From assembly GCA_041650615.1 (NCBI GenBank), contig JBAZKU010000001.1, positions 91,763-155,762 of the forward strand: 64,000 bases of DNA, in the 5' to 3' direction. Shown here piece after piece: positions 32,106 through 32,176 of this stretch (positions are counted from its first letter, which is position 1; each line of letters starts with the position of its first letter). The notes below the pieces were generated by a model, which did not search any database, was not told the origin of the DNA, and saw nothing but the letters and a program-made list of their open reading frames with translations. Source of the DNA: Minisyncoccota bacterium. Its GTDB lineage: Bacteria; Patescibacteriota; Minisyncoccia; Phycocordibacterales; UBA9973. Both the position numbers and the translations under genes were made by a program.

Positions 32106-32176
32106 AAATTCAAAAAATTTTTGAGCCTTCGCCCTCGGAGTCCGTGAGGGCAGGGAACCCACGACTCTTTAAATTT
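32106..32176 (+). repeat. GC-rich promoter-proximal element AAATTCAAAAAATTTTTGAGCCTTCGCCCTCGGAGTCCGTGAGGGCAGGGAACCCACGACTCTTTAAATT
   Basis: Near-identical copies in reverse complement at 52801..52870 and 54064..54133; a diverged copy at 20828..20917. Confidence 0.85.

What the first reader, a model, noticed from the sequence alone, without database searches (positions are those of the whole stretch)
32106..32176. ~70-bp GC-rich structured element directly upstream of the promoters of scpB, dnaX, dus and trpS
Three near-identical copies (32106..32176 in sense orientation; 52801..52870 and 54064..54133 in reverse complement) plus a diverged copy at 20828..20917 that is nested in a 21-bp inverted repeat. 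A 14-nt fragment (GAAACTGCGCCCTC) lies at ~19330 near recR/dnaB.

Every full copy lies in sense orientation 20-40 nt upstream of a TATAAT-like box and gene start. It contains internal stems (GCCCTC/GAGGGC, GAGTCCGTG/CACGACTC).

It could be a shared cis-regulatory site that ties these genes (chromosome segregation, replication clamp loader, tRNA modification, Trp-tRNA) into one regulon, a small-RNA gene, or a promoter-carrying mobile element.
Basis: seen in the sequence. Interest (0 to 1): 0.65.

Follow-up and report, generated by a model that had tools for sequence, protein, structure and literature searches.

The report
Mobile palindromic repeat invading gene junctions
The ~70-base GC-rich "element" is the core of a ~93-base hairpin-forming mobile repeat that has spread through the tiny genomes of Nomurabacteria (candidate phyla radiation), wedging itself between neighbouring genes and even, in frame, inside essential genes, rather than being a shared control switch for the four genes it precedes here.

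Summary
The repeat is real: four full copies (32096-32194 +, 52784-52877 -, 54046-54141 -, 20827-20919 +) and one 5' fragment (19330-19356 +). Each is a long hairpin: a conserved asymmetric GC-rich core, a covarying inner helix, and 20-26-bp AT-rich outer arms that differ between loci yet stay complementary. An exact-pattern scan found 78 more loci in Nomurabacteria/Paceibacterota genomes. Among 47 distinct loci it lies mostly between co-directional genes, sense-oriented (17 vs 3), filling the spacer. In six locus groups it sits in frame inside LeuRS, LigA, MnmA and an FAD-linked oxidase. Across 80 related scpA-scpB junctions the ancestral state is overlap or a 1-8-nt gap. This element (both orientations) and at least six other repeat families occupy that junction in scattered lineages. 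So it is an inserted, mobile, Rickettsia-palindromic-element-like repeat, not a regulon operator or sRNA gene. There is no Rfam match, no target-site duplication and no known transposase. Unexplained: at orthologous sites it is far better conserved than synonymous sites, the core can be flipped or swapped within retained arms, and the antisense strand folds better. A promoter or terminator role is untested.

The parts
32096..32194 (+). Copy 1, whole hairpin between the scpA stop (32085-32087) and the scpB ATG (32204). 5' arm 32096-32119, inner helix/junction 32120-32130, GC core 32131-32160, 3' junction 32161-32170, 3' arm 32171-32194.
   Evidence: (89.3 bits)
52784..52877 (-). Copy 2, whole hairpin between Dus (stop 52970) and the DnaX-type clamp-loader gene (ATG 52764). 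Core 52816-52845. It abuts a different 109-nt repeat (52862-52970). TATAAT lies 6 nt before the dnaX ATG.
   Evidence: D5, D9, I1; 95.5 bits
54046..54141 (-). Copy 3, whole hairpin between the FtsQ-like gene (stop 54147) and Dus (ATG 54037). Core 54079-54108. The orthologous copy in L022 has the same arms but a different apical loop.
   Evidence: (91.3 bits)
20827..20919 (+). Copy 4 (GAAAC...GTTTC subfamily), perfect 22-bp outer arms, in the divergent dnaB<->trpS spacer, pointing to trpS (ATG 20932). The orthologous site in L051 carries the core flipped.
   Evidence: z -7.6; 90.6 bits
19330..19356 (+). Truncated 5' half-copy (arm, inner helix and first 7 core bases), antisense to recR and dnaB. 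It ends at the dnaB stop codon.
   Evidence: nhmmer E 0.09
53201..53307 (-). Related family: an in-frame ~105-nt palindrome inside Dus, with AT-rich arms and a different GC-rich core that shares CTGCGCCCTTC and GGGACCC. It is absent from the L022 orthologue.
   Evidence: (30.2 bits)
43457..43518 (-). Long AT-rich intergenic hairpin whose 9-nt loop CGGTCCGTG resembles the element apex (GAGTCCGTGA). It may be a core-deleted derivative or an empty hairpin.
   Evidence: (31.1 bits)

Best explanation
It is a non-autonomous, hairpin-forming interspersed repeat (a MITE-like 'protein-coding palindrome' of the Rickettsia-palindromic-element type). It is specific to Nomurabacteria/Paceibacteria of the candidate phyla radiation.

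Shown:
- The unit is a ~93-nt imperfect palindrome. It has a sequence-conserved, asymmetric GC-rich core of about 47 nt, a 5-bp inner helix that covaries, and AT-rich arms. The inner 10-20 bp of the arms are conserved; the outer 8-12 bp are locus-specific but complementary.
- It is inserted DNA. Orthologous junctions in relatives are empty, with overlapping genes.
- It survives only where insertion is tolerated: the few bases between a stop and the next start, or variable surface linkers of proteins, where it is read through in frame.
- At a given site the core can differ in subfamily, apical loop or orientation while the arms stay.

Inferred:
- Spread occurs by an unknown trans-acting activity that recognises the folded core on one strand. 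An ssDNA/HUH-type enzyme is the obvious candidate, because the antisense strand folds about 6.6 kcal/mol better.
- Copies also exchange cores by gene conversion.
- Arm complementarity is kept, and extended, by intra-hairpin template switching during replication, not necessarily by selection.
- The strong sense bias reflects selection against the orientation that places the more stable hairpin (or an outward TAAAAT -10 box) wrongly in a transcript, because flips do occur.
For: - Multi-copy and lineage-wide: 78 loci in about 35 MAGs, up to 10 or more copies per genome. There are 84 exact copies, about 6 near-intact and a few decayed copies in 0.64 Mb.
- Hairpin with covariation: 91.6% of cells paired against 77% in shuffles, 345 double-sided changes against 120, and 0/500 shuffles reach the observed values. 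Slid controls give 38-64%. Inner helix variants are GAGCC/GACTC, GAAAC/GTTTC, GCGCC/GACGC and GAATC/GATTC.
- Insertion polymorphism at scpA-scpB: about 45 of 80 junctions overlap or have 1-8 nt. The rest hold this family, sense or antisense, or at least 6 other repeat families. The ScpB tree shows one main gain with internal losses and replacements, plus at least 3 further gains.
- In-frame copies lie in LeuRS (4 species), LigA, MnmA and an FAD-linked oxidase, using three reading frames.
- Three copies lie in one oxidase gene, one of them nested in the apex of another. A nested small palindrome occurs in L076.
- The LeuRS linker ranges from 23 to 91 aa across 120 homologues, with intact, decayed and unrelated inserts.
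- Cassette behaviour: window copy 3 and L022 share arms but have apex CCGTGA vs CATAA. The dnaB-trpS site has similar arms in the window, L023 and L051, but the L051 core is flipped and the subfamily differs.
- Other palindromes inside window genes behave the same way. The Dus insert is absent in L022.
- No Rfam family matches.
Against: - No target-site duplication.
- No transposase or autonomous parent found.
- No copies in IMG/VR viral contigs.
- Orthologous copies are much better conserved than neutral sites. Core plus helix is 86-100% identical and arms 64-100%, against 34-67% at four-fold sites. The element is the local identity maximum against L022. Decaying selfish DNA would not show this. 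It requires ongoing conversion or re-insertion, or host-level selection.
- Few decayed copies were seen, although the collection was ascertained by an exact core pattern.
- The origin of the locus-specific outer arms is not established. The scpA-scpB comparison says that about 100 nt is new DNA. The LeuRS comparison suggests only about 70 nt was added.
Confidence: 0.75

Rival explanations
1. Exapted intercistronic module. The element, whatever its origin, is now kept by the host. The idea is that it insulates neighbouring genes: the hairpin ends or protects the upstream transcript, and the TAAAAT in the 3' inner arm acts as an outward -10 box for the next gene. The lineage has almost no Shine-Dalgarno sites and mostly leaderless mRNAs. 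This overlaps with, rather than excludes, a mobile origin.
For: - Conservation far above synonymous sites at orthologous loci.
- Strong sense bias even though flips occur.
- The hairpin begins a median 3 nt after the stop and ends a median 12.5 nt before the ATG.
- TAAAAT lies 20-30 nt before the ATG in about 25 copies that have no other -10 box.
- The window has SD motifs in 1 of 49 genes and -10 boxes abutting 19 of 49 starts. Its ordinary spacers carry long perfect hairpins in the same position.
Against: - Copies inside ORFs cannot serve as terminator or promoter without harm.
- The scpA-scpB junction works without it in most relatives, and it is lost or replaced within the clade.
- There is no U-run after the outer stem, and only UU before AAAA after the GC core.
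- The critical A2 of TAAAAT is G in several copies (TGAAAT).
- The dus copy has no plausible promoter geometry beyond that box.
Confidence: 0.25
2. Shared operator or leader that co-regulates scpB, dnaX, dus and trpS as one regulon.
For: All four window copies are sense and directly upstream of a gene start.
Against: - About 47 distinct loci have unrelated downstream genes.
- Copies lie inside coding sequence.
- The scpB-upstream copy is absent in most relatives and sometimes inverted.
- There is no Rfam cis-regulatory match.
Confidence: 0.03
3. Stand-alone structured RNA gene (sRNA or small ribozyme), transcribed from either strand and present in many copies.
For: - The core sequence is strictly conserved, with asymmetric internal loops.
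- The antisense strand folds better in 72 of 78 copies.
- There is a weak resemblance to cow-rumen-4 RNA, 20.9 bits.
Against: - The cow-rumen-4 score is far below the gathering score of 48.5, at E 0.16 in a 131-nt search.
- The core helices CCCU/AGGG and GUC/GAC are invariant in the collected set, so they carry no covariation evidence. One diverged copy (L082) breaks them without compensation.
- No consistent promoter or terminator brackets the element.
- In-frame translation of copies is observed.
Confidence: 0.05

Closest known systems
Rickettsia palindromic elements (RPE-1 to RPE-8; Ogata et al. 2000, 2002, as summarised in PMC2229807)
   Same: Short (105-146 bp in Rickettsia, about 93 nt here) interspersed repeats predicted to form long stem-loops. 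Found in a reduced, AT-rich genome. Present both in intergenic DNA and fused in frame within conserved housekeeping genes. No known transposase. Target-site duplication uncertain.
   Different: Unrelated host phylum (CPR). Sequence homology to RPEs was not tested. The GC-rich asymmetric core is nearly invariant while the outer arms are locus-specific. There is a strong sense-orientation bias. Three reading frames are used. Core flips and swaps occur within retained arms. Several sister families compete for the same gene junctions.
Classical bacterial MITEs (Correia/NEMIS, ERIC, RUP; PMC2229807, PMC10969869)
   Same: Non-coding, under 200 bp, with terminal inverted repeats and transcripts that fold into long hairpins. 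They can carry promoter-like boxes and lie between genes of operons. They show presence/absence polymorphism between relatives.
   Different: No TA or other target-site duplication. No cognate IS was identified. The outermost repeat arms are not conserved between copies. Copies inside ORFs are translated.
REP/REPIN elements mobilised by RAYT (IS200/IS605-like Y1 transposases; PMC3116915, PMC3733652)
   Same: Extragenic palindromes recognised as single-strand hairpins. They show strand and orientation asymmetry, lie mostly between co-directional or convergent genes, and evolve in concert within a genome.
   Different: REPs are 20-40 bp with a GTAG/CGTC tag. This element has no such tag and is about 93 nt. 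No RAYT has been linked to it. REPs are not found in frame in genes.
GC clusters and repetitive hairpin-forming elements of mitochondrial genomes (e.g. sponge RHEs, PMC2800124, title and abstract only; yeast mtDNA GC clusters, from my own knowledge)
   Same: GC-rich hairpin elements that repeatedly invade AT-rich, compact genomes. They occur in several families, with nested insertions and an unknown mobility mechanism.
   Different: Those are organellar. No sequence relationship is known, and no comparison was run here.
Template-switch generation and maintenance of perfect hairpins (Monttinen & Loytynoja 2022, PMC8794818)
   Same: It explains in one step the multi-base 'compensatory' differences and outward extension of perfect stems, as seen in the LeuRS and scpA-scpB orthologous arms.
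   Different: It is a mutational mechanism, not an element family. Its action here is inferred, not shown.

Membership tests
RPE-like protein-coding palindromic repeat | Short multi-copy interspersed repeat that folds into one long stem-loop | tested here: met
   There are 4 copies in the window and 78 further loci. Median hairpin length is 93 nt. 91.6% of cells are paired, and 0/500 shuffles reach the observed covariation.
RPE-like protein-coding palindromic repeat | Copies both in intergenic DNA and fused in frame within conserved protein genes | tested here: met
   In-frame copies occur in LeuRS, the LigA adenylation domain, MnmA and an FAD-linked oxidase, with Pfam domains on both sides of the insert. 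Most copies are intergenic.
RPE-like protein-coding palindromic repeat | Sequence homology to Rickettsia RPE consensus sequences, or a Rickettsia host | not tested
   No RPE sequences were compared. All hosts are CPR MAGs. The claim is therefore 'works like an RPE', not 'is an RPE'.
RPE-like protein-coding palindromic repeat | The insert-bearing protein is made and remains functional | not testable with these tools
   This is only inferred, from open frames in essential single-copy genes retained across 4 species.
Classical MITE | Terminal inverted repeats conserved among copies | tested here: inconclusive
   The inner 10-20 bp of the arms (..AAAWTTTCTGAG / CTCTTAAAATTT..) are conserved. The outer 8-12 bp differ at every locus.
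Classical MITE | Target-site duplication flanking the element | tested here: not met
   Direct repeats of 2-6 nt at the hairpin bases are no more frequent than in offset controls.
Classical MITE | Empty and filled orthologous sites in relatives | tested here: met
   The scpA-scpB junction is empty in about 45 of 80 relatives and filled in others. The Dus in-ORF relative is absent in L022.
Classical MITE | A cognate autonomous IS or transposase with matching ends | tested here: inconclusive
   A crude scan of the fetched loci for separated 5' and 3' element halves listed no half-element pair lying more than 80 nt apart, but the 5'-half pattern was too strict and missed the 5' half of most intact copies, so the scan is uninformative. 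Whole genomes were not searched.
REP/REPIN-RAYT | 20-40-bp palindrome with a GTAG/CGTC tag and an associated RAYT gene | tested here: not met
   The element is about 93 nt and has no GTAG- or CGTC-tagged end (read directly). Presence of a RAYT was not tested.
Intrinsic terminator | GC-rich stem followed immediately by a U-run | tested here: not met
   After the outer stem come aaaacagcc, cacgggtt, gaagattt and aatatatt. After the GC core there is only UU and then AAAA. Genuine terminator-like hairpins in the window look different.
Cis-regulatory RNA or operator of a regulon | Conserved association with orthologous genes of one pathway | tested here: not met
   There are 47 locus groups with unrelated neighbours. 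The ancestral scpA-scpB junction is empty.
Any Rfam family (including cow-rumen-4, RF02948) | Score at or above the family's gathering threshold | tested here: not met
   Only two tRNAs pass in the window. The best match in a 131-nt search is cow-rumen-4 at 20.9 bits against 48.5, E 0.16.

The most novel reading that the evidence does not exclude
The conserved asymmetric core is not junk. It would be a strand-specific structured nucleic-acid cassette under purifying selection. One version is the recognition hairpin of an undescribed mobility system in CPR bacteria that targets hairpin apexes and gene junctions (ssDNA/HUH-like, or RNA-mediated given the sense bias). The other version is a domesticated intercistronic module: a transcript-end hairpin plus an outward TAAAAT -10 box. 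Such a module would convert overlapping, translationally coupled genes into separate leaderless transcription units in a lineage that has lost Shine-Dalgarno initiation.
Probability: 0.2. Interest if true: 0.75.

Novelty: new member of a known kind. Interest (0 to 1): 0.55.

Why it matters
CPR bacteria have some of the smallest and most compact genomes known, and little is written about their repeats. My full-text searches found no description of palindromic repeats in Nomurabacteria.

- At least seven hairpin-repeat families repeatedly colonise the same gene junction. One of them is read through inside LeuRS, LigA, MnmA and Dus-type genes. This extends the 'selfish DNA in protein-coding genes' phenomenon beyond Rickettsia.
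- It explains part of the odd insertions, split gene calls and assembly breaks seen in CPR proteins. Several loci end inside the element.
- It warns against annotating these GC-rich islands as riboswitches, sRNAs or regulon operators.
- The excess conservation, the cassette-like flipping of the core and the strand asymmetry give a concrete handle for finding the enzyme that moves such elements. That enzyme is still unknown for RPEs as well.

Tried and rejected
- Rfam at gathering threshold and a permissive search of the element gave nothing usable. cow-rumen-4 was rejected on score.
The partners are absent in most copies and subfamilies.
- Hammerhead, twister, pistol and HDV-like ribozyme cores were compared by eye only and dropped. 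No tool test was possible beyond Rfam.
- The 'outer arms are pre-existing terminator stems hit in the loop' idea is attractive: the window has many empty long hairpins, and there are nested apex insertions. It cannot explain arms at the ancestrally overlapping scpA-scpB junction or inside LeuRS, so I keep it only as a partial possibility.
- The excess of A.C over G.T mismatches in arms (41 vs 10) points to the antisense strand. Many of these mismatches are inherited within subfamilies, so the p-value is not trustworthy. The energy comparison shares that caveat.
- The target-site duplication search was negative.
- The orphan-half scan for an autonomous parent was uninformative because the regex was too strict.
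- The viral-contig scan found no hits.
- A recombination tract as the cause of high element identity to L022 was rejected. Identity falls to 40-80% immediately outside the element.
- GC skew follows gene strand in the window, so replication direction could not be separated from transcription direction.

Full report
**1. Observation**

The repeat is real and non-random.
- The 37-nt core matches three times with at most 2 mismatches, against zero in 100 shuffles.
- The repeat finder extends the similarity to 80-81 nt at 89-93%.
- A fourth, diverged copy lies at 20827-20919 inside a perfect 22-bp inverted repeat.
- A covariance model built later scores the four copies 89-96 bits, and the next hit 31 bits.
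- The 'fragment' near recR/dnaB is a 27-nt 5' half-copy (19330-19356) that ends at the dnaB stop codon.

Pfam confirms the neighbours: ScpA|element|ScpB, FtsQ-like|element|Dus|element|DnaX-type ATPase, and DnaB<-|element|->TrpS. Only two tRNAs in the window reach Rfam thresholds. The best permissive hit to the element is cow-rumen-4 at 20.9 bits against a gathering score of 48.5.

**2. Anatomy**

Each copy is one long imperfect hairpin.

I scanned one genome per species with GCCCTCGGAGTC-N3-8-GGRCAGGGRACCC. This returned 78 loci, almost all from Candidatus Nomurabacteria/Paceibacterota MAGs, with up to ten or more copies per genome. The window shares about 76-83% nucleotide identity with several of these loci, so it comes from a related, unsampled species.

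An alignment of 78 copies shows three layers.
- A GC-rich, asymmetric core of about 47 nt is nearly invariant. Invariance of the matched bases is partly by ascertainment.
- A short inner helix covaries between subfamilies: GAGCC/GACTC, GAAAC/GTTTC, GCGCC/GACGC and GAATC/GATTC.
- The arms are AT-rich. Their inner 10-20 bp are conserved. Their outer 8-12 bp differ at every locus, yet pair, often perfectly.

Median total length is 93 nt.

The covariation statistics are strong. 91.6% of cells are paired against 77% in shuffles, and 345 double-sided changes occur against 120. No shuffle of 500 reaches the observed values, and slid controls give 38-64%.

The core-internal pairs predicted by RNAalifold (CCCU/AGGG and GUC/GAC) never vary in this set, so they are untested.

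**3. Where it sits**

Grouping copies by flanking proteins gives about 47 distinct loci.
- 17 groups lie between two co-directional genes in sense orientation, and 3 in antisense.
- 16 more groups have one scorable neighbour, consistent with sense.
- The hairpin base begins a median 3 nt after the upstream stop codon.
- It ends a median 12.5 nt before the downstream ATG. The element therefore fills the spacer.

Six locus groups (10 copies) lie inside long ORFs, all in sense orientation and all in frame.
- The hosts are LeuRS (an orthologous site in four species), the LigA adenylation domain, MnmA and an FAD-linked oxidase. Pfam domains lie on both sides of the insert.
- Three reading frames are used, giving peptides such as ..KNFLSLRPRSHEGREPTTLKN.., ..KNFGAFALGVTGQGTHDAPNS.. 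and ..NNFLETAPSESRGQGTHTFLEN...
- One oxidase gene carries three copies, one of them nested in the apex of another.

**4. It is inserted DNA**

The decisive test used 80 metagenomic loci encoding ScpB relatives at 64-87% identity.
- In about 45 loci, scpA and scpB overlap (-11 to -1) or are 1-8 nt apart. This is the ancestral, translationally coupled state.
- The other junctions hold this element in sense orientation, this element in antisense orientation (L102; L112=L119=L120), a decayed copy (L093), or one of at least six other repeat families. Several of those families also occur elsewhere in the window.
- In four loci the ScpA reading frame runs into the element and stops at the TAA of its apical loop.
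- On a ScpB tree, sense copies fall mainly in one clade. That clade also contains an empty junction (L092) and junctions taken over by other families. Further gains occur elsewhere on the tree.

The LeuRS site tells the same story. Among 120 homologues the linker ranges from 23 to 91 residues, with intact, decayed and unrelated inserts. One 'empty' linker (L079) is itself a 34-nt imperfect palindrome centred on GAATTC.

Within the window, the related ~105-nt palindrome inside Dus (53201-53307) is simply missing from the L022 orthologue.

These data exclude an ancestral operator, leader or regulon site. They place the element with the mobile palindromic repeats, of which the Rickettsia palindromic elements are the closest analogue. 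RPEs are 105-146 bp long stem-loops. They are intergenic and also in frame in 19 genes, and how they move is unknown (PMC2229807).

**5. What does not fit simple selfish decay**

- At the orthologous scpA-scpB insertion, four-fold degenerate sites of scpB are 34-67% identical. The core plus inner helix is 86-100% identical, and 25-nt arm segments are 64-100%.
- Against L022, element copy 3 is the local identity maximum (85-93%) between genes at 40-85%. There is no extended recombination tract.
- Window copy 3 and its L022 orthologue share arms but differ in the apical loop (CCGTGA vs CATAA).
- At the dnaB-trpS site, the window, L023 and L051 share flanks and similar arms. The L051 core is inverted, and the window carries a different subfamily.
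- The core therefore behaves as a cassette that is converted, replaced or flipped within retained arms.
- In the LeuRS quartet and in the scpA-scpB group, multi-base arm differences are fully compensated. Template switching within hairpins during replication can do this in single events (PMC8794818). I infer that mechanism; I have not shown it.
- The antisense strand folds better in 72 of 78 copies (-33.9 vs -27.3 kcal/mol). A.C mismatches outnumber G.T by 41 to 10 in the sense strand. Both measures are inflated by shared ancestry of copies.
- No target-site duplication exists.
- No copies occur in viral contigs.
- No transposase was identified.

**6. Mechanism: best reading**

Shown: an interspersed, hairpin-forming, inserted repeat. 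It persists only at stop/start junctions and in tolerant protein linkers. It has cassette-like core dynamics.

Inferred:
- An unidentified enzyme recognises the folded core on one strand. An ssDNA/HUH-type enzyme is the leading candidate.
- Gene conversion acts among copies.
- Template switching keeps the arms paired.
- Selection removes the antisense orientation in transcribed spacers. Flips do occur, so orientation must be filtered after the event.

**7. Promoter and terminator question**

The window's genes almost lack Shine-Dalgarno motifs (1 of 49). In 19 of 49, a -10-like box lies 3-9 nt before the ATG, which implies leaderless mRNAs.

The element does carry a semi-conserved TAAAAT in its 3' inner arm. 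It lies 20-30 nt before the ATG in about 25 copies that have no other box. An outward promoter is possible, and it would explain the sense bias. But its key A is replaced by G in several copies, and copies inside ORFs argue against a required role.

The element also does not look like the window's genuine terminator hairpins.

I give the exaptation model about 0.25. It is not exclusive of mobility.

**8. Novelty**

Full-text searches found no description of such repeats in Nomurabacteria, Patescibacteria or CPR. The family is absent from Rfam. I file it as a new member of a known kind: RPE- or MITE-like protein-coding palindromes. It has unusual traits, namely locus-specific compensated arms, core flipping, strong sense bias and excess conservation. 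These justify follow-up.

Noticed in passing
window 18847-18893(-), 32372-32418(+), 33353-33391(+), 52103-52131(-): A second family: a 39-47-nt GC-rich palindrome CCCGCCTCG...CGAGGCGGG inserted in frame in RecR, ScpB, an S11 DD-carboxypeptidase and (degraded) the DnaX-type gene. RecR and ScpB both gain the identical peptide PASTRGDSSTRGGEI.
   Followed up: partly
window 13087-13165(+) and 55014-55092(-): A 79-nt repeat (92% identical) bounded by CCCGTACTAAA/TTTAGTACTGGG. It runs from just after one gene's stop codon and ends exactly at the next gene's ATG (...TACTGGG ATG).
   Followed up: no
window 30127-30235 and 52862-52970; also L142, L027, L035: A 109-nt repeat family (..GGTACGGATTTTTTGAAGCTTAAAAAATCCTGAAGTTCTCGCGCCGTCGCGCTCGAAACCCCT..). 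One copy abuts element copy 2, so the Dus-DnaX spacer consists of two different repeats. The same family fills the scpA-scpB junction in L142.
   Followed up: partly
window 8424-8531; L086, L087, L117, L122: Another hairpin repeat (..TTTAACCCTGTTAAAT...ATTTAACAGGGT..). It is present in the window and occupies the scpA-scpB junction in four related metagenomic loci.
   Followed up: partly
whole window (49 ORFs of 150 aa or more): Shine-Dalgarno motifs precede only 1 of 49 starts. 19 of 49 have a TATAAT-like box ending 3-9 nt before the ATG, which implies mostly leaderless mRNAs.
   Followed up: partly
window 34850-34882(+), about 36083-36105(+), 48330-48362(-); related motif at 22061, 30803, 40001-40110: A conserved motif GACCGCGACCTGCYTCTAACGGG sits immediately before the ATG of three genes (starts 34875, 36106, 48337). 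Shorter ATCCCGTTAGA copies occur elsewhere. It might be an SD-independent start signal or yet another repeat. The same motif fills the scpA-scpB spacer in L134 and L150.
   Followed up: no
window 4465-4503, 46335-46392, 21985-22030, 17425-17465, 43457-43518: Many intergenic perfect 15-20-bp hairpins with 4-nt loops, flanked by A and T runs (bidirectional terminator-like). They are often followed within about 20 nt by a TATAAT box.
   Followed up: partly
L013 1957-4998(-) (LeuRS, 1014 aa); also P0016, P0046, P0054, P0067, P0081: Nomurabacteria LeuRS carries a NUDIX domain (Pfam PF00293, residues 421-517) inserted after the editing domain. Many LeuRS genes in this group are called as two ORFs.
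   Followed up: no
window 162-10318: Three paralogous ~570-590-aa ORFs (162-1874, 6688-8415, 8543-10318) share 61-76% identical DNA segments (repeat families D1-D4).
   Followed up: no
L017 3121-3185, L004 282-345, L083 1137-1200 (LeuRS), L063 6899-6927: A sister family with the same arm style but core CCGGCTTAACCCTTCCCGGAGTACCGGGCGGGACCCACACCG. It occupies the same LeuRS linker site in MFUW01.
   Followed up: partly
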